A stretch of 63,995 nt of DNA, the filler included, from Perkinsus olseni (lineage: Eukaryota): assembly GCA_013115125.1 (NCBI GenBank). It is 12 parts of 12 records of this genome, joined end to end, with 100 filler letters (N's around TTAATTAATTAA, not from the genome) between each part and the next. Parts side by side here need not be neighbours in the genome. Positions count along the whole stretch, not along the records: positions 22,034 to 27,398 come from JABANN010001191.1; 11 more parts are not named here. One strand, 5' to 3'. The notes beneath the pieces are model-generated. The model saw only the letters and a program-made list of their open reading frames with translations, was not told the DNA's origin and ran no database searches. Each line of letters starts with the position of its first letter. The first letter of the stretch is position 1. Positions 16,441-41,113 of the stretch are shown piece after piece. The translations under genes and the position numbers were made by a program.

Positions 16441-16544
16441 CGCANNNNNNNNNNNNNNNNNNNNNNNNNNNNNNNNNNNNNNNNNNNNTTAATTAATTAA
16501 NNNNNNNNNNNNNNNNNNNNNNNNNNNNNNNNNNNNNNNNNNNN

Positions 16545-21933: not shown

Positions 21934-22451
21934 NNNNNNNNNNNNNNNNNNNNNNNNNNNNNNNNNNNNNNNNNNNNTTAATTAATTAANNNNNNNNNNN
22001 NNNNNNNNNNNNNNNNNNNNNNNNNNNNNNNNNGAGGCTAGATATCTTAGCGTAGCACAAGGGGGAGCGACTCCATAGGGACAGCAACGACACAACGATC
22101 TTCACAAGAGCTCACGGGAGCCGCGACCACTCGACCTGCCGTGTATCTACCCACTGCTCTATATGAGTGCTATGTATAGAGCATAACGCAGGCAGGCTCT
22201 GAACGGCTGCTGTGAATTTCTCTACTCCCATTCCCTCATATAACATTGCCCACCACGCACGAAACAAAAACGCCCTTACGGCAAGAAACTCCCGAACTCC
22301 CCATCGGGGAGTCCAACATAGACGGTGACCTACAACAGGGTGTCGACTTGTAGAGGGCACACATCTTCAACATTAAAACGTGATGCTCGCGATGGGCAGG
22401 TTCGGCGTAATACTCATGAGAAGTGCAATGGAGCCAACTACTCACAATGTG

Positions 22452-22465
22452 CATCTTGGCTCAAG
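22452..22465 (+). other. Spliced-leader (SL) relic CATCTTGGCTCAAG at the 5' end of the LINE
   Basis: Exact match to the last 14 nt of the Perkinsus 22-nt SL (ACCGTAGCCATCTTGGCTCAAG). It lies 51 nt before the ORF1 ATG and is not followed by the GT donor of an SL RNA gene. Confidence 0.8.
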
Positions 22466-22516
22466 ATCTTAGTTGATCTACCCGTTTTTATAAGAGCCCT
22501 CAAGCTCCCGTCTTCC

Positions 22517-23590
22517 ATGCCATACGTTTCTGGCTCCGTGTGCGGCTCCGACAGCGATGCGAGCGACACTGGGCAGTCCATGGCGAAGACGCTGGACCAA
22601 CTCGAGGAGTTGGTCAAATACGAACCAAACAAGAGAAGCACCAGAGAGAAAGGTGCTGTGGGTGTACAATTGGTGAGTGATATTCGCATGCGTCTTTTTG
22701 AACTTTTAGAAGAAAATAGATCCCTTAGAATTGATTTAGCTAGTAGTGTCCCACGCTCGTATAGGGATGTCACAGCCGGCGGAGGTGGTGGTATCCAGCC
22801 CCACCCCTCAACCACCACCCCGACTCCTACGCGCATTTTTACCCCAAATGTGAAAAACAAGTCCGTTATCTTAAAGCCCACGTCTGACGGCGTTATGGCC
22901 AACGTGGACAACGAGTTGAAGAAGCTGAAGGACGCCCTGAATGGACTAGAGATCATCAGGATCAAAGTCCGTCAGCGCGGCGTGGAAGTGATCACCCCAC
23001 CTTCGACCAGATTAAGCGAGATACAGAGTAAGATTAGCTCTTGTGGTCTGCCTTTCACTGCAGGTGATGCCCCCAAGCTACAGCCGGAAGTTTTGATCTT
23101 CACTGGCGATTACCAAGACGACCCCCAGAATCTCTCCCAAGATATAAAATCGCACAATTCCAGGCTGGACCCCGAGTCCTGGCATACTGTGCGTACCAAC
23201 AACAAGTTTACCATCTATAGGATGACTCCGGATCAGCGTAAGGAACTGATTCTGCGCGGGGGTTGTTTTGTCAGAGGCCAAAAGCTGAAGTGCAAGGACA
23301 TCGTCACTGTGCGTGTCTGTCTTACCTGTGGCAAGGCACACGCCAATCCGGCGAACTGCAGGACCAAGCCGGAAGATCGAGTCTGCGTGAAGTGCTGCGG
23401 GAATCACTCTCTCAAGCTAGGTGAATGCCCACTTGAGGAGTTTCCCGCAGTACTCAAGTGCTGTTTATGTGGCGGAGAGGGGCACACCCCTTTCAGGGGA
23501 GACAACTCTGCCTGTGCCAAGACCAATGAATTACGACAACGCAAGGTCAACATGACCGACTACGGCGACGGTCCTCTCCCCGGTTTCTGA
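22517..23590 (+). CDS. LINE ORF1, gag-like nucleic-acid-binding protein
   Basis: First ATG after the SL relic. Coiled-coil-like N-terminus and three Cys/His knuckles: CLTCGKAHANPANC, CVKCCGNH...C, CCLCGGEGH...C. Confidence 0.88.
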   Translation: MPYVSGSVCGSDSDASDTGQSMAKTLDQLEELVKYEPNKRSTREKGAVGVQLVSDIRMRLFELLEENRSLRIDLASSVPRSYRDVTAGGGGGIQPHPSTTTPTPTRIFTPNVKNKSVILKPTSDGVMANVDNELKKLKDALNGLEIIRIKVRQRGVEVITPPSTRLSEIQSKISSCGLPFTAGDAPKLQPEVLIFTGDYQDDPQNLSQDIKSHNSRLDPESWHTVRTNNKFTIYRMTPDQRKELILRGGCFVRGQKLKCKDIVTVRVCLTCGKAHANPANCRTKPEDRVCVKCCGNHSLKLGECPLEEFPAVLKCCLCGGEGHTPFRGDNSACAKTNELRQRKVNMTDYGDGPLPGF

Positions 23591-23629
23591 GTCACCCTTC
23601 AACGATTGCAACTATCTTTGTATTATTTT

Positions 23630-26600
23630 ATGGTTTTTCAGTGCTTACAGATTATTTGCAATAGATCCGTAGCGTGTCTGAACTCTCTAGCCCAACTCTT
23701 ATCTCCTCACTTTCTTTTAGTTCAGGAACCCCCAGCCAGGTACCATGTTAGCGGCTACCTGTGCTTCCGTTCCTCTCCGGCGGCGAAGGCTTCTGTCTAT
23801 GTCCGACAGGATCTATCCTCTGACTTCGCTCTCTCTACCAGCACGTCATCCGATGAGCTGGCTCTGGTAGTTTCCTCGTACCTATGCGTCGGCTCCTTCT
23901 ACATCCCCCCTGGCTCCCGCGAAGTTTCATCTCTATGGCAAGCCAGCAGCACTCTACCACAGTGTGACCATACAGTCCTCGGCGGCGATGGTAACGGCTA
24001 TCATGACCTCTGGGGTGTCCTCCATCCCGACAGGCGAAACGCGGATGCGGTGCGCACAGGTGGCCAGCTCGTGGACTTCGCCGACAGTTGTCTTCTTGAA
24101 TGCGCCAATGCCACCAACCCGTTGAAGGCTACTTACAAGCACGTCGGTTACGCCGATGGCACGAGAGAGTCGATTGTGGATGTCACCTTCCACGGCGAAG
24201 GCATTGAGGTGGCTCACTGGCGTGTGGAGGATATGGAAACACTCAGCGACCACTTTGCGGTACGCTTCGACATACTACTCAGGGGCGACGTGGCCACCGA
24301 CCCGAACAAGACTATCAACGATCTAAGCCATCTCGCCTACGCGAAGACGGACTGGAACGCTTACCTCGAGTACCTGCGTGTGAAGGCTCCCCACTGGGGA
24401 GTCCCCAGATCGACCGGACTCCCATCACCTCCGCTAACCAGCTGGAGCTCAGGATTAACGAGCTCACTCGTCTTCTGCAAGAAGCGGCGTCTTCTGCAAC
24501 ACCTTCGAAGAAGCCTCCACGTCGGCGCAAGGACAAACTATGGTGGGATGAGGCCTGCCGCACATCTCGTGCGGATCTGAGACGTTTTGAACGCACTCAC
24601 GGTCGGGGCAGTAGTGAATACCGACGTGCTCGGAATGCTTACAGGTCCCTTATAGAGCAGAAGAAGAGGCAGAGCTTCCAGGACTTTGCCGACAAAATCG
24701 AGAACGACAGAGGTTTCTTCAAGAGGATTAAATCTCCTGCTAGGGCGGGCGATGCTCTCCTACTTGGCGACACCACCCCTGCTGAGACGGTTGGTCGGCT
24801 CGCCGACGCCTACCTAGGTTCCACTACCCCAGAGCGCGCAGAAGTAGCGGCTTGGCCGACGCTCCCGACGAATGGCCACAACATCATTGTCACCAAGCTG
24901 CACGTCGAGAAGACCCTAGCCTCCAGGAAGAAGAACTGGGACAAAGCGAGCGGTCCGGATGGCCTTCGACTTCGTCATCTCTCCACGGTTCCAAGCGATA
25001 TCACTACTGAATTGAGTCTCATCATTACGGCTAGCATCGCGCTCGGTCATGTCCCAACCCCCTGGAAGACGGCCTCAGTCTGCTTTTTGCCTAAAGGCAG
25101 AAGCAAAGGTGAGCTCAAAGGTGTCAGGCCCATCTCTCTCCTACCGGTTATGTGCAAGCTCTGCGAGTCTTGCGTCCTCGATCTCCTACAACCGCTAGAG
25201 GACCTGATGCTCTCGTCTGACATCCCCTACGGTTACCTGCCGGGCAGGAGTACCACAGGCCTTGCCAACCACATCAAACGACAACTCCACCAAGGCAAGA
25301 AGAGCCCATGGGCCTTGGCAGCACTAGATTGTAGCAACGCCTTCGGCGAGATCAAACATGGTCGCATCTTCGAGTCACTAACCCGACACGGAGTCTCACC
25401 TCTCCTATGCAACTGGATTGGTGGCTGGCTCTCAGGCAGGATAAACCGAGCGCTTTACCTCGGCATCGAGGAATGTCGATTCGCTCGGTCGGATGTTGGC
25501 ACTCCCCAGGGCGCGATCCTCAGCCCCATGCTCTTCAACATCTGCTGTTTTGATGCTCTGTCACAGCTTCAGGTCAACCTCACCGAGTCAGCAGCTGAGA
25601 CCGTGACCAAGGTGTGCTCCTACGCCGACGACAGCTACCTGACCTTCCGCTTCGCAAAGGGCCTGTCGACCGCTCGTATGGACTCCCTGGTACATGAAGG
25701 CATCCAACGAGCTCAAGCTGCCCTTGACCCTCTGGGGCTGGTGATCTCCCTGGAAAAGACTGCAGTCCTTGTGAACTATCGGTCAGACCGCTATATCAAT
25801 AAGACCATCAAAGTGCTCGGTATCATCTTCTCGAAGTCCGGTTCTTGGCGTCCACATCTACAAGAGACTCTCTCTAAATGCCAAACGTCGCTCAACCTCA
25901 TTTTGAGGTATGTCCGACGCAACTACGGCCTTTCGACAGAGGCGATGATCAAAGTGTTTGACCTGACCGTGATACCCAAGCTCGTCTACGGGATGGGCTG
26001 TTTCGGCAGTATCCTCTTCGAGAAAGGCGCCCAGAAGACCCTCAACCAATTCCAAGCCAAGTTCATCAAGATCGCATTGCGGCTTTCACACTATGCCCCG
26101 ACCAAGGACACCTTGGCCTTAGTTGGGCGCCGGCCATTGTCGGAGACTCTGACCATTAGAATCGGTATCGACTGCCTACACAAACATGGCTTCCTGGGTA
26201 GCCTCACCTGTGGCGCGACCGGCGCGCTGAAGAAGAAGGTACTTGATGGCGTTGCGGAACTCTCACCGACATCAAGGAGCACCAAGGACTACGAGAAGAC
26301 CTCACGTCTACCCAGGGCGTTTACGGCATGCACCTCCCTACTCCATTTTTTTTTGTCCACGAGAGGGCTATTAAGCTTGCAACTGGCAAGGCTCCATCAC
26401 CCTATCGCATCTACACGGATGGTTCACTTCTTAAGCACGACCGATCAGCGGGTGCAGCTTTCATAGCCCTTGACAGGGCAGGCAAGCCGTTAGCCGAGAA
26501 GCTCTACAAGCTCCCTCGCCACGCCAGCATAGCCCAGTGTGAGACTTATGCCCTGTACCGTGCCCTACGCTTCTGCAAGGACTCTGGTTGGCAACAGAAG

Positions 26601-27233
26601 GCCACCATCTTCACCGACTCCTACTCCTGCATTCTCTCAATATGCTCCCGGACGACGAGATGGCTCACTGGTAAGATCAGAGATCTCATCGTAGCATGTC
26701 AATGTCAGATTGCCTGGGTTCCATCCCACACCGGGCGGATACCGGGGAACGAGCTCGCTGATAACCTGGCGAACCTCGCCAGGCGGATTGGCAAGCCAGT
26801 CTCTGTACCCTTCTCTCGCTCCCATACGGTCAAGACCATCACTGCTAAAGTCGAGGGTTGGCGAGAGGTGGATCTCGGCATCTGCAAGCACCCTGTACGT
26901 TCCCTACTGGGCTCTCGTCGCCAACGGACCCTAGTTCAGGATAATCTGAGGCTATTACCTCCTATTGCGAGGATTATTTTGAACCGGTCCAGATGTCTAC
27001 ACGCCTACCGTCACAGGATCGGCATTGACGAGTCGCCCCTATGCCCTGCATGCGGTCTCACTGACGACGGCCACCACAAACTAATTGTCTGCCGTAAGAC
27101 CACCTCTCGACCCTCATGGCATAACAGGCTGGGAACTGTGGGCAAGTATTCTATTTCTCTCAACAGACTGATTGTCTTATCTTCGGTCTGCCGGTCGATC
27201 GAGACCGCTGGACCTACCGAGGCAGGCGGCTGA
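23630..27233 (+). pseudogene. LINE ORF2: AP endonuclease - reverse transcriptase - RNase H - CCHC, with two apparent frameshifts (~24400 and ~26250-26355)
   Basis: APE motifs VQEP, GDGNGYH, SDHFAV; KLWWD; RT motifs RPISLL, LDCSNAF, GTPQGAILSP, YADD; RNase H motifs YTDGS, TDS, WVPSH, GNELAD. Confidence 0.92.
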
Positions 27234-27327
27234 TCCAGTCGCTCGCCACTCACAGCCTGATCCTACAGTCTCGTGATTATATAGCCTGGTATAGTCTGAT
27301 TAAGCCTACTGGCATCGGACTTTAAAC

Positions 27328-27328
27328 C

Positions 27329-27398
<70 letters not shown>
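27328..27398 (+). repeat. (CAA)n tail of the LINE, >=23 perfect units, runs into the contig end
   Basis: Read directly from the sequence. Confidence 0.97.
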
Positions 27399-29020
27399 NN
27401 NNNNNNNNNNNNNNNNNNNNNNNNNNNNNNNNNNNNNNNNNNTTAATTAATTAANNNNNNNNNNNNNNNNNNNNNNNNNNNNNNNNNNNNNNNNNNNNCG
27501 GCTCTCTCCTGTGAAAGTTCACCATCCCACTGACCTTCCTTGAACTTGAGCAGGGCGCAGTTGAGCTTTTGCCACTCCGAGCTTTACCTCGTTACACGCG
27601 TGTACCGACCAATTCAATGAAGAGTGCATCATCCGAAATTGGCACCTACCGAAGACGTATGTGATCGAACACATACACGGTGCTCCCACGTTTAGCAGAA
27701 TTGTACAACTCACGAATATATAGAATGACGAAGATCCATTTCTCGAATCACGGAGAGACCGAATTCTGAACTGCCCGAACCACCATGGGGACAAAAGACC
27801 GGATACGGAATACACCACTAACGGAACTATAGTGCTTACCCGAAACGACAATATACCGAATCCACTGCTTACTAAGATGATACCGAAAATTTCATGCAGT
27901 GGCTCAACAACAGCGATTGCAGTGATATTCATGGAGTGATTCGTATCCTAGGTTTGCCCATGACCACTATGGTGAGTAACAGTCACTCAGTAACTCATCA
28001 TGAGTTTCTCATCCGAAATAACAAGCAAGAAATGAGTAAATAATCCCCAATGAAGATAGTCGACCTGTCGGTCCCGAGATACTTCACTCACCGTCTCGGG
28101 TTATTCCGTGATGACCGTCACTAGACTAACACAACCAGCACTGAATTTGAGAAGCTATAAAAATTCAGCTACCGTTGAGCCGTAGTATCACTGGGTATAC
28201 TTAATGGCAATTAATGGATCAGAAACGACCAAATCACTCTCCTTCACGAATCGTGAATCACGAATTAAGGTTACAATGAGCGTAACGGGCGACTCTCCAA
28301 AATGGTAAGGGACAGAGCATACAATTTCCCAGTCCAATTACCCAGTATAGTAAGCATAATAGTGCTGCGCCCTCTCAGTATGTTACGCTCGTATGCTGTA
28401 CATGTCGCGACGATTGCCGCAGCATCCACACGCATCGTGTTGGCGCGACACAGCGAATATGACGGAAGCGTTGTTGAACAGCGGAAAACGGAGTCATTTA
28501 TACATGCTGGATTGAGCGACTGGATTGCGATTCGATGACACTTCATTAGATAGAACGACTTGATCAATTAGATCGGCAGGGTCCGAGATGTGTCATTAAG
28601 AATAATGCTATGCGGTGAGTGCACTGAGTGTAACACAACCACGCCTTAGGCAATGTAGCGACAACGGACGGATTAGCTAAGGCAGCAGATCCGTCATCAT
28701 AGCGTAACGTTCTCTATAATACGTTCCCGAAGAACCATCGCTTGTGCGTACCACCTACTACTGCGGTCGCAACACTTGATGGTTCTGCATCCAAGACAGA
28801 CCAAACTTGGATAAGAAGGACACTTGAGCTTAAGATGATTACACAGTCACAGTCGAAAAAATCAATGACACTAGACGACACCTCGTCTGCGCAGAAATGG
28901 GCAACAAACAGGGGTAGCGACTGGTCAACTTCCTGATCCATCGTCGCGAGCAAAATGACGAGACACCGTCATGAATGGAGTGATCCTGCAATCGGCGCGA
29001 TCAGGAAGTCCAAGTCAGTC

Positions 29021-38293: not shown

Positions 38294-38405
38294 NNNNNNN
38301 NNNNNNNNNNNNNNNNNNNNNNNNNNNNNNNNNNNNNTTAATTAATTAANNNNNNNNNNNNNNNNNNNNNNNNNNNNNNNNNNNNNNNNNNNNTCGGTAG
38401 CATGT

Positions 38406-38477
38406 GCCTCGGTAGCTCAGTCGGCAGAGCGCGTGCCTTTTAAGCCCGTGGCCGCGGGTTCGAGCCTCGCCGAGGTG
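38406..38477 (+). tRNA. tRNA-Lys(TTT) copy 1 (1-nt deletion near the 3' end)
   Basis: GCCTCGGTAGCTCAGTCGGCAGAGCGCGTGCCTTTTAAGCCCGTGGCCGCGGGTTCGAGCCTCGCCGAGGTG. Confidence 0.75.
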
Positions 38478-38557
38478 CGCACCTTACCCGACCTTGTTCT
38501 AGCGTAGTTGGCTACCTGCCTGGGGGCCTCTCGGCCCATGTGTCGACGGTAGCACGT

Positions 38558-38630
38558 GCCTCGGTAGCTCAGTCGGCAGAGCGCGAGTCTTTTAAGCACT
38601 TGGCCGCGGGTTCGAGCTCCGCCCGAGGTG
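38558..38630 (+). tRNA. tRNA-Lys(TTT) copy 2 (disrupted anticodon stem, probable pseudogene)
   Basis: Anticodon stem CGAGT/GCACT has several mismatches; A/B boxes intact. Confidence 0.65.
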
Positions 38631-38706
38631 CGTACCTTATCCGACCTTGTTCTAGCGTAGTTGGCTACCTGGGAGCCTCTCGGCCCATGTGTCATCGGTA
38701 GCATGT

Positions 38707-38779
38707 GCCTCGGTAGCTCAGGCGGCAGAGCGCGTGCCTTTTAAGCCCGTGGCCGCGGGTTCGAGCCCCGCCCGAGGTT
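38707..38779 (+). tRNA. tRNA-Lys(TTT) copy 3
   Basis: Cloverleaf as in copy 5, with D-loop and discriminator substitutions. Confidence 0.8.
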
Positions 38780-38859
38780 CGTACCTTACTCGACCTTATT
38801 CTAGCGTAGTGGGTTAGCTACCTGGGAGCCCCTTGCCCCATGTGTCATCAGTAGCATGT

Positions 38860-38932
38860 GCCTCGGTAGCTCAGTCGGCAGAGCGCGTGCCTTTTAAGCC
38901 CGTGGCCGCGGGTTCGAGCCTCGCCCGAGGTG
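38860..38932 (+). tRNA. tRNA-Lys(TTT) copy 4
   Basis: Cloverleaf as in copy 5, with one G-U pair in the T stem. Confidence 0.85.
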
Positions 38933-39012
38933 CGTACCTTACTCGACCTTATTCTAGCGTAGTGGGTTAGCTACCTGGGAGCCCCTTGTCCCATGTGTCA
39001 TCGGTAGCATGT

Positions 39013-39085
39013 GCCTCGGTAGCTCAGTCGGCAGAGCGCGTGCCTTTTAAGCCCGTGGCCGCGGGTTCGAGCCCCGCCCGAGGTG
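39013..39085 (+). tRNA. tRNA-Lys(TTT) copy 5
   Basis: GCCTCGG/CCGAGGT acceptor stem, GCTC/GAGC D stem, CT-TTT-AA loop, GCGGG-TTCGAGC-CCCGC T arm. Confidence 0.88.
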
Positions 39086-41113
39086 TGACCCATCTGGAGT
39101 TACTCCATTGGTGATGTCAGTTCTACGTGGGAGAGGGTTTTGCTGATTTGTGGCTTCGCTCGTGGCTAGAGACCGTTCAGGTCTCAAGAGGATTCCATGT
39201 CGTCAATAATCGTTCCGAACGTGGCGAGGATCAGCAGAGGCAGGAGGAGATTATGGACGGGTATCTCGAAGAGCTCGTCGCCGAAAACCGCAGGATAAGG
39301 TGCATTGAACTCGGACTGGTCTTCGGCTCTATTGGGATGCGCTGAACCGTATTCAGGGAGGCCGAGAGGAGATGCAGGAAGAGAAGACGGAATCAGTCTA
39401 GCACGGAGCTGAGGGAGCCATCAGCGGCGAGCCGAATGTACTACCGTTCCGCAAGTTGTAGAGTAGGATTATTTAGTAGCGGCGAACGACAGCATACTCC
39501 ACCCCATGGAACTAGCAGAAATTGCAAGATCTCCGGTACGGTCAATACTATCGATAGTGATGCCGATGATGATGAAGATTCGGGAGAGGAGGCCGAAGGG
39601 ACAAGCGACATCGATGACCGTACGCCTCCTAGGAAGGCCGCCCGGGGACAGGTGCCGCGGAGAAGCCGCAAGCTGAGGGCCGCCGCTCCAAGTAGGTGAT
39701 CCGCCGGTTGTGATCGTTTCTACGGTCGAATACTCACAGACGAGACCTTTCCGCATTCTTGAGCTAGTCGCTGCTACTGCAGATCCTACCTCTATCAGGT
39801 ACGCCAAGTCGCAGTCGAGGGACCGCGATGGATCAGGTAAGGAGCGATTCTTCGCATACATACGCAATTCGGTCACTGTAGCCTGAGTACGGTGGAGAGG
39901 AGTCTCCCGAGGAAGCGATAGGACCTGCTCGTGTTCGGCATAGAAATCCCGCATGGATCATGAGCCCCTACCGCAAATGGGAGGTGTGTCTCGCACGAGG
40001 TGTGATGCCGAGGATGCTTATTACTTAGCAATGGGAGTTGGACTACCTAGACTGGGGGATCATAAGATACGGAAAAGAACGAAATAAGTGGAAGAAGATG
40101 ATTGAAGACCCCGAGTTGAGGTCGGTCAACGGAAGGGGCAGAAGATGAGCATTCCGCGGATGCCTGTCGGTGTATCGGTCCCGCGTCTCAAAAAGGATCG
40201 TCGTTCTGAAGCGTCTCTCACAGGTTCGCTCCTCACCGGACAGCAGAACACCTGCGCAACAAGGTACGGTCTCTGATTAATGAGGGTTATTATGATCGGC
40301 AAAACTGAGTTGTCCTTTTCACGGAATCTACTTTTCAATCTCAACACGTTGGTTGATTGAGCTGTATCTTCTTGCACCGACCGTTCAGCGGCACCGTAAT
40401 TCTCCGGGTGTCCCGAATGCCCCTTATGTGACATAAGTTATGTCCGTTCAACGATGTGAATGTCACGTCCTGCAGGGCCCTGTAAACGCAGGCACCTCTT
40501 CGATTCACTTCGCATAGTAATCCTGCCGGAAGGTGGGCCTATCCCCTTCACTCTAATAGACCACGAGGAGATCACGAGCAGGGCGCATGTACAACCGAGG
40601 ATCTGGCCACCTGCTCAGGGTAGCAAGAAATCTGAGGAGTGCTCTCAGTGAGTTGGATTACGAACGATAGTGAAGGCAGGTCCCCCGACGAACAGCGATG
40701 CACGAGCGTCAGCTTGTTGCATCACGCAGGGGCTTCGAGATTCTCTCGCCTGGCAGTCCATTCTAAGTGAAGAATCTCGGGAAACTTACGAGGAGGTTTC
40801 GTAGCTACCTGATGTATACCACACTAAACGCAACTCTCGTATGTGGCATGAACGACAACAACAATTTTAATAACATGAACGATCGGGGTACATGATGAAT
40901 CTATGGAATAGGAGTGGCAACATCATGAAGAATTTGGCGAACCTATGTAGATATCAGAGGCGAGACACGAGGGTGCCTCGTCGCTTCTTAGGGGAAGCGG
41001 AGGCTCTATCGAACATCACAATAGTATCTACTACAAAGCTTTGACAATTTCTTCCCATGCACACGTCAGAGGGGACAGGAGTTTCGCCCCTGGTGAAGAG
41101 GCATTTTTCATCT

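What the first reader, a model, noticed from the sequence alone, without database searches (positions are those of the whole stretch)
22440..22520. LINE retrotransposon that begins with a spliced-leader relic: possible SL-trans-splicing-driven, promoter-less retrotransposition cycle
Seen: CATCTTGGCTCAAG (22452-22465) lies 51 nt before the ORF1 ATG of a nearly intact LINE, on the sense strand. It is followed by ATCTT, not the GT donor of an SL RNA gene. Known: this is the 3' 14 nt of the Perkinsus SL (ACCGTAGCCATCTTGGCTCAAG), and SL relics mark retroposed mRNAs in dinoflagellates. A given 14-mer is expected ~5e-4 times by chance in 128 kb of both strands, before counting its position. Inference: the element RNA was SL-trans-spliced, then reverse transcribed to within ~8 nt of the cap. 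The SL ends in AG and this copy has lost the upstream AG of CGTAG, so the relic could itself act as the trans-splice acceptor. That would restore a capped, full-length 5' end from any read-through transcript, doing the job of an internal promoter or 5' ribozyme. This differs from SL-gene-targeting elements (SLACS/CRE, NeSL), which use a restriction-like endonuclease rather than APE.
Basis: partly seen in the sequence, partly recalled or inferred. Interest (0 to 1): 0.88.

Follow-up and report, generated by a model that had tools for sequence, protein, structure and literature searches.

The report
LINE retrotransposon starting with a spliced-leader relic
A nearly intact jumping gene (LINE) of the shellfish parasite Perkinsus olseni begins with the last 14 letters of the parasite's mRNA spliced leader, which suggests its RNA was capped by trans-splicing before it was copied back into the genome.

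Summary
CATCTTGGCTCAAG lies at 22452-22465 (+). It equals the 3' 14 nt of the 22-nt Perkinsus SL (PmaSL1) and sits 51 nt before the ORF1 ATG, which is at 22517, not 22518.

The element is a real APE/RT/RNase H LINE with a (CAA)n tail and two ORF2 frameshifts.

New context: the window is a string of small contigs joined by N44-TTAATTAATTAA-N44 spacers. The LINE sits on its own 5365-bp contig (22034-27398), which source names on its gene model assign to Perkinsus olseni. The contig ends inside the tail, so no 3' flank or TSD can be read.

Main new evidence: in another run of the same organism label (X8), a contig matches the upstream flank 22290-22451 at 94% and then runs on unlike. Homology stops exactly one base before the SL motif, so the inserted DNA seems to begin with the relic. 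The match also ends at the SL exon's last base, and no SL intron follows.

Best reading (about 0.7): an SL-trans-spliced LINE RNA was reverse transcribed to within 8 nt of its 5' end.

The proposed self-renewing, promoter-less cycle is untested. No other 5' junction and no RNA evidence could be obtained.

The parts
22034..22451 (.). Upstream flank, from the contig start to the insertion point. It contains high-copy repeat fragments at 22034-22107 and 22185-22237.
   Evidence: Contig limits. In run X1 the repeat fragments have depth 740-1064, against about 75-90 for other contigs, and contigs branch at 22106/22107. X8 record 23 matches 22290-22451 with 9 other letters, and its next 41 letters do not fit.
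22452..22465 (+). Spliced-leader relic, equal to positions 9-22 of the 22-nt Perkinsus SL (PmaSL1)
   Evidence: SL sequence from PMC3101222 and PMC9399869.
22466..22516 (+). 51-nt 5' UTR of the LINE, beginning ATCTTAGTTGATC. It holds a second CTCAAG at 22498-22503, which is not significant.
   Evidence: 1085 of 5000 shuffles reach the score. No Rfam family at E<=1 other than a chance miRNA hit in the flank. Fold z-score -0.33.
22517..23590 (+). ORF1, 357 aa plus a TGA stop. It has three Cys/His knuckle-like motifs, seen by eye, and no Pfam hit. The frame is open upstream to 22322.
   Evidence: Relatives exist only in Perkinsus: P0082 (P. chesapeaki, 64% identity) and others near 30%.
23591..24580 (+). 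First ORF2 frame, holding the apurinic/apyrimidinic-type endonuclease. It is in the same frame as ORF1, directly after the TGA.
   Evidence: Pfam Exo_endo_phos_2, E=3.5e-13. Frame relation.
24208..26466 (+). Second ORF2 frame, holding the reverse transcriptase. The frameshift relative to the endonuclease frame lies between 24371 and 24453.
   Evidence: Pfam RVT_1, E=1.6e-26. Gene-model mapping. Best non-self relative is P0001 (P. olseni), 43% identity.
26247..27233 (+). Third ORF2 frame, holding RNase H. The second frameshift lies between 26239 and 26315.
   Evidence: Pfam RNase_H E=4.3e-12 and RVT_3 E=1.5e-6. Mapping.
27234..27327 (+). 3' UTR. Its last ~80 nt are shared at about 89% with another single-copy-depth contig in run X1.
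   Evidence: X1 record 8 fits 27240-27318 with 9 other letters.
27328..27398 (+). (CAA)n tail of 23.7 units, cut off by the contig end

Best explanation
This is a young, nearly intact APE-type LINE of Perkinsus olseni. It has ORF1, an endonuclease, RT, RNase H and a (CAA)n tail. Its inserted DNA starts with a 14-nt relic of the host spliced leader.

Most likely sequence of events:
1. A transcript that started upstream of a progenitor copy was SL-trans-spliced at an AG immediately before ATCTTAGTTGATC. This gave a capped SL-LINE mRNA with a 51-nt 5' UTR.
2. That RNA was translated and then copied by target-primed reverse transcription from its (CAA)n tail.
3. Copying ended 8 nt short of the 5' end, probably at modified SL nucleotides or during 5' end joining.

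Shown:
- the LINE domains;
- the exact SL 3' 14-mer on the sense strand;
- the match ending at the SL exon's last base, with no intron after it;
- loss of flank homology at 22451/22452 in one contig of another sample.

Inferred:
- trans-splicing of the template RNA;
- the cause of the 8-nt shortfall;
- that the progenitor relied on transcription coming from outside the element. Anything upstream of a trans-splice acceptor is discarded, so it cannot be inherited by the copies.
For: LINE identity: Pfam Exo_endo_phos_2 3.5e-13, RVT_1 1.6e-26, RNase_H 4.3e-12, and a (CAA)23.7 tail.

Motif: exact 14-mer at 22452-22465, the only one in the window. Expectation is 0.004 for any SL 14-mer. The SL sequence is confirmed in two papers.

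Boundary: X8 record 23 is a 212-nt contig. Its letters 42-203 fit 22290-22451 with 9 other letters, the last 36 nt perfectly. Its remaining 41 letters on the far side do not fit. A related LINE 3' end in the same run stays 95.5% identical (record 24, 25 differences over 558 nt). A LINE following that flank in X8 would therefore have aligned.

Junction: the match stops at the SL exon end. The P. marinus SL gene continues 'Gguag' (PMC3101222 passage), whereas here ATCTT follows.

Contig integrity: runs X1-X6, from two studies, hold 0.99-1.00 of the sampled 31-mers of the stretch. The contig is therefore unlikely to be a chimera. At least one of those runs may be the source of the assembly.

Literature:
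- The longest SL in P. marinus ESTs was 13 nt, attributed to 5' modifications that block RT (PMC2868825).
- A truncated 13-nt DinoSL occurs on Amoebophrya transcripts (PMC7789003).
- About 30% of Hydra TE Iso-Seq reads carry an SL (PMC12220107).
Against: - Only one copy with a 5' end is visible.
- The boundary rests on one low-depth contig (depth 3.28). Its 41 non-fitting letters were not printed, so an empty site was not actually read.
- There is no 3' flank, hence no TSD.
- No RNA evidence exists. The one possible RNA run (X7, type guessed) has no contig over 22384-23045. It covers the upstream flank 22156-22383 at the same low depth as the LINE body, so it may simply be DNA.
- The SL sequence is published for P. 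marinus, not P. olseni. None of the 10 papers listed by my P. olseni + 'spliced leader' search gave one in title or abstract, and the one I opened had the term only in its reference list.
- The ORF1 frame stays open 195 nt upstream of the ATG, through the motif and into the flank. By my arithmetic this has about a 4% chance, and it is unexplained.
- A chance 14-mer is expected about 0.3-0.4 times per genome of this size.
Confidence: 0.7

Rival explanations
1. Chance or native motif. The 14-mer is ordinary element or flank sequence that happens to equal the SL 3' end, and no SL-bearing RNA was involved.
For: About 0.3-0.4 chance copies of a given 14-mer are expected in a 42-59 Mb genome (sizes, my arithmetic). 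The ORF1 frame is open through the motif to 22322. Only one copy is available.
Against: The motif is on the sense strand and 3'-anchored to the SL exon end. It begins exactly where homology with the X8 flank contig stops. For a fixed boundary, the chance of a 14-nt match is 4^-14. No other SL substring longer than 10 nt occurs in the window.
Confidence: 0.08
2. Target-derived relic. The LINE inserted right next to a pre-existing SL relic, SL-like pseudogene or retrogene 5' end. The 14-mer would then belong to the flank, not the element. This is analogous to SL-associated insertion.
For: SL exons are scattered in P. marinus genes (PMC3101222). SL-targeting LINEs are known elsewhere (SLACS/CRE/NeSL, recalled).
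Against: The X8 homologue of the flank stops at 22451 and does not carry the 14-mer. The upstream 8 nt match the SL at 3 of 8. The flank has no SL similarity above chance (1228 of 2000 shuffles reach its best score). The endonuclease is APE-type, and the only domains detected in ORF2 are APE, RT and RNase H.
Confidence: 0.08
3. Template-switch chimera. The LINE reverse transcriptase reached the 5' end of an unspliced LINE RNA and jumped onto an SL RNA or another SL-capped mRNA. This is the route that produces U6/L1 chimeras in mammals (recalled).
For: SL RNA is abundant. LINE RTs are known to switch templates (recalled). The product would also carry SL sequence 5' of the LINE.
Against: A jump onto the 80-83-nt SL RNA (PMC3101222 abstract) would normally bring in intron sequence. 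A jump onto an mRNA would bring in mRNA body. Here the SL's last exon base abuts the LINE directly, which is the signature of a splice junction.
Confidence: 0.07

Closest known systems
Relic spliced leaders of retroposed mRNAs (retrogenes) in dinoflagellates and Perkinsus
   Same: A 5'-truncated SL fragment is encoded in the genome at the 5' end of a retroposed unit, on the sense strand, and the unit ends in a 3' tail. This is described in PMC7245778, PMC12014239 and PMC3942190 (passages) and, for P. marinus genes, in PMC3101222. Symbiodinium retrogenes with DinoSL relics are enriched for the GO term 'RNA-dependent DNA replication' (PMC5585692). RT-encoding units with relics were therefore probably seen there, without comment.
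   Different: Here the retroposed RNA is the autonomous LINE itself, so the relic marks the element's own replication intermediate rather than a bystander mRNA. The relic is 14 nt, not the usual 15-nt CCAT...CAAG relic left by re-splicing at the internal AG.
SL-gene-targeting non-LTR elements (SLACS, CZAR, CRE1/2, NeSL-1); features recalled, not checked in a paper here
   Same: A LINE physically joined to SL sequence.
   Different: Those elements carry a restriction-like endonuclease and sit inside SL RNA genes, using the gene's context. This one has an APE endonuclease. Its flank is not an SL gene, and the SL fragment is part of the insert.
Trans-spliced transposon transcripts in Hydra
   Same: TE RNAs receive the host SL. 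30.9% and 29.7% of TE Iso-Seq reads carry an SL (PMC12220107 passage).
   Different: That is RNA-level evidence only. The passage does not report an SL relic retained at the genomic 5' ends of the elements. The supplements (Fig. S5) could not be opened.
5' end formation from co-transcripts by HDV-like ribozymes (L1Tc, and R2/RTE recalled) and the Pr77 internal promoter of trypanosomatid LINEs
   Same: Both solve the same problem: how a LINE without an upstream promoter gets a defined full-length 5' end. See PMC3185411 and PMC1874656 (abstracts in search listings).
   Different: No ribozyme family matches 22034-22800. L1Tc transcripts are explicitly unspliced. Here the 5' end would be made, and capped, by the host trans-spliceosome.

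Membership tests
APE-type non-LTR retrotransposon (LINE) | Reverse transcriptase domain | tested here: met
   Pfam RVT_1, E=1.6e-26, residues 302-540 of frame 24208-26463
APE-type non-LTR retrotransposon (LINE) | Apurinic/apyrimidinic-like endonuclease N-terminal to the RT | tested here: met
   Pfam Exo_endo_phos_2, E=3.5e-13, in 23591-24577
APE-type non-LTR retrotransposon (LINE) | 3' end in a simple-repeat or A-rich tail | tested here: met
   (CAA)23.7 at 27328-27398, running into the contig end
APE-type non-LTR retrotransposon (LINE) | Target-site duplication flanking the insert | not testable with these tools
   The contig ends inside the tail, no genome is held, and the loose end of X8 was not printed
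APE-type non-LTR retrotransposon (LINE) | RNase H after the RT (I/Ingi/Tad-like architecture; clade names recalled) | tested here: met
   Pfam RNase_H, E=4.3e-12. Clade placement by phylogeny was not done.
SL-relic retrocopy | 3' part of the species' SL on the sense strand, ending at the SL exon's last base and not followed by the SL intron | tested here: met
   22452-22465 equals SL positions 9-22. The next bases are ATCTT, against 'guag' in the SL gene. The SL is published for P. marinus only.
SL-relic retrocopy | The relic is the first sequence of the inserted DNA | tested here: met
   X8 record 23 fits 22290-22451 and its next 41 letters do not fit. This rests on one contig at depth 3.28.
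SL-relic retrocopy | Transcripts carrying a fresh SL at or before the relic | not testable with these tools
   No RNA holder is listed. X7 has no contig over 22384-23045.
SL-gene-targeting LINE (SLACS/CRE/NeSL type) | Restriction-like endonuclease instead of APE | tested here: not met
   Only the APE, RVT_1 and RNase H families are found in the ORF2 frames at E<=0.01
SL-gene-targeting LINE (SLACS/CRE/NeSL type) | Insert interrupts an SL RNA gene, with SL gene sequence on both sides | tested here: not met
   The upstream 8 nt match the SL at 3 of 8. The flank's best SL similarity is reached by 1228 of 2000 shuffles. There is no SL intron after the motif. The 3' side is not testable.
Ribozyme-processed LINE (HDV-like 5' ribozyme) | Self-cleaving ribozyme at the element's 5' end | tested here: not met
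   No ribozyme family at E<=1 in 22034-22800. Fold z-score -0.33 for 22452-22600. Undescribed ribozymes cannot be excluded.

The most novel reading that the evidence does not exclude
SL trans-splicing is the regular 5'-end-forming step of this Perkinsus LINE lineage. Each new copy carries an SL relic whose terminal AG serves as the trans-splice acceptor. Any sense read-through transcript from host DNA is then trimmed at that AG and capped with a fresh SL. This regenerates a full-length, translatable element RNA without any element-borne promoter or ribozyme. It would be a third solution to the LINE 5'-end problem, and one in which the host's own mRNA tag becomes a heritable cis-element of a parasite of the genome.
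Probability: 0.25. Interest if true: 0.85.

Novelty: new variant of a known kind. Interest (0 to 1): 0.6.

Why it matters
LINEs lose everything upstream of their transcription start at each cycle. Known ways round this are internal promoters and 5' self-cleaving ribozymes. A LINE whose genomic 5' end is an SL relic is direct sequence evidence that the replication template was a trans-spliced mRNA.

If this is general, it would show a retrotransposon using the host trans-splicing machinery to cap and define its RNA. The only requirement would be to land in any transcribed region. That would also help explain how the reverse-transcriptase source behind the widespread mRNA recycling in dinoflagellates and perkinsids is itself expressed.

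It would give a simple genomic marker as well: SL suffix plus element 5' end identifies full-length, RNA-derived copies. In nine full-text searches I found no paper that describes a LINE with an SL relic at its genomic 5' end. Supplements were closed.

Tried and rejected
- **Whole genome:** none is held, so the proposed BLASTN census of copies could not be run.
- **Second copy in the window:** blastn and tblastn of the element against the window found only self-hits.
- **Earlier findings:** three look-ups returned nothing.
- **Metagenome contigs:** the ORF1 protein scan gave 53 pattern matches, none confirmed. The exact 24-nt 5' UTR pattern gave 0 hits.
- **The search for homologous proteins:** nothing for ORF1 or for the first 100 codons including the relic-encoded residues. 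The hope was to catch peptides called from SL-joined transcripts.
- **Sequencing runs:** no RNA holder is listed.
- **X7** (type 'RNA?' is a guess): 8 listed pieces, identical to the window apart from one other letter in record 15, at depth 3-5, with none over 22384-23045. It gives no information on the SL junction.
- **X9:** only the 22034-22107 repeat was laid.
- **X1:** holds all sampled words but shows no laid contig over the LINE body. The tool says a filter drops records, so this hole means nothing.
- **Second, older relic in the 5' UTR:** CTCAAG at 22498-22503, and ATCTTAGTTGATC against ATCTTGGCTCAAG at 8 of 13. Not significant; 1085 of 5000 shuffles reach the score.
- **5' ribozyme or structure:** none found.
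- **Recalled claim about Symbiodinium:** I recalled that heat-activated Symbiodinium retrotransposon transcripts were reported with DinoSL. PMC5776459 contains no SL term, so the recollection was wrong or lies elsewhere.
- **Recalled claim about rotifers:** the search 'Terminons' + trans-splic gave 0 papers. My recollection that rotifer telomeric retroelements are trans-spliced stays unverified.
- (coordinates one base off, redone; term format, redone).
Full report
**What the window is.** The 63,995-base window is not one locus. It consists of contigs of falling size (5431, 5420... 5324 bp) joined by N44-TTAATTAATTAA-N44 spacers. The finding lies on one such contig, window 22034-27398 (5365 bp). 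No whole genome is held.

A gene model in the public protein collection (P0081, 1373 aa) maps letter for letter onto this contig in six pieces. Its source names it a partial hypothetical protein of Perkinsus olseni, on a contig of 5365 bp. A second P. olseni assembly encodes the same protein on a 5770-bp contig, with the same skipped stretches (P0102). The organism is therefore P. olseni, and the element's two frame breaks are probably real and not assembly noise.

**The observation.** CATCTTGGCTCAAG is at 22452-22465 on the + strand. It equals positions 9-22 of the 22-nt Perkinsus marinus SL, PmaSL1, as printed in PMC3101222 and PMC9399869 (passages). It is the TCTT (Perkinsus) variant, not the TTTT dinoflagellate one.

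The eight bases before it (ACAATGTG) match SL positions 1-8 at 3 of 8. The bases after it are ATCTTAG, whereas the P. marinus SL gene continues 'guag'. The ORF1 ATG is at 22517, 51 nt downstream.

One given 14-mer is expected about 5e-4 times in this window, and any 14-nt SL substring 0.004 times. All other SL substrings present are 9-10 nt, as chance predicts. Across a genome of 42-59 million letters (contig totals of runs X1-X6), chance would still give about 0.3-0.4 such 14-mers by my arithmetic. The argument must therefore rest on position.

**The element.**
- ORF1 is 22517-23590 (357 aa). It has three Cys/His knuckle-like motifs by eye and no Pfam hit.
- A TGA stop follows, and then ORF2 in the same frame.
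- ORF2 holds an APE-type endonuclease (Exo_endo_phos_2, 3.5e-13), a reverse transcriptase (RVT_1, 1.6e-26) and RNase H (4.3e-12). These lie in three successive frames.
- The frame changes fall between 24371-24453 and 26239-26315.
- A 94-nt 3' UTR and (CAA)23.7 follow, and the tail runs into the contig end.
- ORF1 relatives are found only in Perkinsus: 64% identity in P. chesapeaki, others near 30%.
- The best non-self RT relative is another P. olseni protein at 43% identity.

The element is therefore a genuine Perkinsus-lineage LINE of the APE+RT+RNase H architecture.

**Where the insert begins.** One call of read laying was available (runs X7, X9, X1, X8, likeness at least 85).

In X8, a run with the same organism label that holds next to none of the stretch's words, a 212-nt contig (record 23, depth 3.28) fits 22290-22451 with 9 other letters. 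The last 36 nt fit perfectly. Its 41 further letters on the far side do not fit. Similarity to the flank therefore stops exactly one base before the SL motif.

In the same run, a related LINE 3' end stays alignable at 95.5% (record 24: 26741-27298, 25 differences, with a loose end before 26741, i.e. a 5'-truncated or diverged copy). A LINE behind that flank in X8 would therefore have aligned. This is the one independent piece of evidence that the 14-mer is the first sequence of the inserted DNA and not part of the target.

Its limits are: a single low-depth contig, the non-fitting letters were not printed, and the flank copy could be a paralogue. The flank itself holds high-copy repeat pieces at 22034-22107 and 22185-22237 (depth 740-1064 in X1, against about 75-90 elsewhere).

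**What could not be seen.**
- No other 5' junction of this family is available.
- No TSD can be read, because the contig ends in the tail.
- No run on record as RNA holds the stretch.
- X7, whose RNA label is a guess, gave eight listed pieces, identical to the window apart from one other letter in record 15, of 158-228 nt at depth 3-5. They lie in the flank (22156-22383) and at scattered places in the LINE body. None covers 22384-23045, so it says nothing about an SL junction.
- Metagenome scans, further protein searches and the scan's earlier notes gave nothing.

**Mechanism.** An SL fragment that ends at the exon's last base, abuts element sequence directly and forms the 5' terminus of a tailed retro-insert has the structure of a reverse-transcribed trans-spliced RNA. 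The same logic identifies retrogenes in dinoflagellates (PMC7245778, PMC12014239) and the SL exons reported in some P. marinus genes (PMC3101222).

The missing 8 nt fit what reverse transcriptases do on these mRNAs. In more than 31,000 P. marinus ESTs the longest SL was 13 nt, seen in 40 sequences and attributed to 5' modifications (PMC2868825). Amoebophrya transcripts show a truncated 13-nt DinoSL (PMC7789003).

One consequence follows by logic. Sequence upstream of a trans-splice acceptor is discarded, so the progenitor's transcription must have started outside the heritable part of the element. This copy's terminal CAAG would itself offer an AG at the right place. Re-use of relic SLs as acceptors, at internal positions, is documented for dinoflagellate retrogenes (PMC12014239). 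Whether this LINE uses that routinely is not shown.

The contig runs uninterrupted through the junction, which suggests the full-length 5' end is single- or low-copy in this genome. That neither supports nor excludes a cycle.

**Rivals.**
1. *Chance or native motif.* Disfavoured by strand, by the 3' anchoring to the exon end and by the coincidence with the homology break.
2. *Relic pre-existing in the target.* Disfavoured because the X8 flank homologue stops before the motif, and because the flank has no SL similarity above chance (1228 of 2000 shuffles).
3. *Template-switch chimera with SL RNA or an SL-mRNA.* Disfavoured because no intron or foreign mRNA body lies between the SL and the LINE.
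4. *SL-gene-targeting element.* Fails two defining features: it has an APE rather than a restriction-like endonuclease, and its flank is not an SL gene.
5. *5' ribozyme.* None was detected.

**Comparison and novelty.** Three things are already known:
- SL relics on retroposed mRNAs.
- SL on Hydra transposon transcripts (about 30% of TE Iso-Seq reads, PMC12220107).
- Enrichment of 'RNA-dependent DNA replication' among Symbiodinium retrogenes bearing DinoSL relics (PMC5585692), which hints that RT-encoding units with relics were already in those lists.

Nine full-text searches found no description of a LINE whose genomic 5' end is an SL relic, nor any proposal that trans-splicing replaces a LINE promoter or ribozyme. 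Supplements were closed and most subscription-journal papers are not in the library, so this absence is provisional. I rate the finding a new variant of a known kind.

**Verdict.**
- Confidence is about 0.7 that the 14-mer is a true relic of a trans-spliced LINE template.
- Confidence is about 0.25 that SL trans-splicing is this lineage's regular, promoter-less way of making its RNA.
- Interest is 0.6.

Noticed in passing
window 5432-5531, 10952-11051, 16445-16544, 21934-22033, 27399-27498 and every ~5.4 kb onward: The window is a concatenation of separate small contigs, sorted by falling length and joined by N44-TTAATTAATTAA-N44 spacers. Neighbouring segments are not physically linked, so any cross-segment reading of synteny would be wrong.
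   Followed up: yes
window 22322-22516: The ORF1 reading frame stays free of stops for 195 nt upstream of the ATG, through the SL relic and 130 nt into the flank, with no in-frame ATG. By my arithmetic this has roughly a 4% chance. It is unexplained.
   Followed up: partly
window 23588-23593: ORF1 ends in TGA and the endonuclease frame of ORF2 continues in the same frame directly after it. ORF2 could be reached by stop-codon read-through or by reinitiation. The public gene model instead splices across this region.
   Followed up: no
window 22034-22107 and 22185-22237: Two short stretches of the upstream flank are high-copy repeats in the source organism (depth 740-1064 against about 75-90 in run X1). 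Contigs branch at 22106/22107 into several different continuations. Their nature is unknown.
   Followed up: partly
window 27240-27318: The last ~80 nt of the LINE 3' UTR recur at about 89% identity in a different contig of single-copy depth in run X1, preceded by unrelated sequence. This could be another family or a non-autonomous element sharing the 3' recognition end.
   Followed up: no
window 38404-39086 and 5528-5602: A tandem array of five tRNA genes lies at ~150-bp spacing. ARAGORN calls one of them (38558-38631) a tRNA with anticodon TTA. The alignment shows the same CTTTTAA anticodon loop as the four tRNA-Lys(TTT) neighbours, with stem changes. It is a diverged Lys copy that was mis-registered, not a suppressor tRNA.
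   Followed up: yes
window 22498-22503: A second CTCAAG (the SL's last 6 nt) lies 13 nt before the ORF1 ATG. The 13 nt after the relic resemble the relic at 8 of 13. This could be the trace of an older relic, but it is not significant (1085 of 5000 shuffles).
   Followed up: yes
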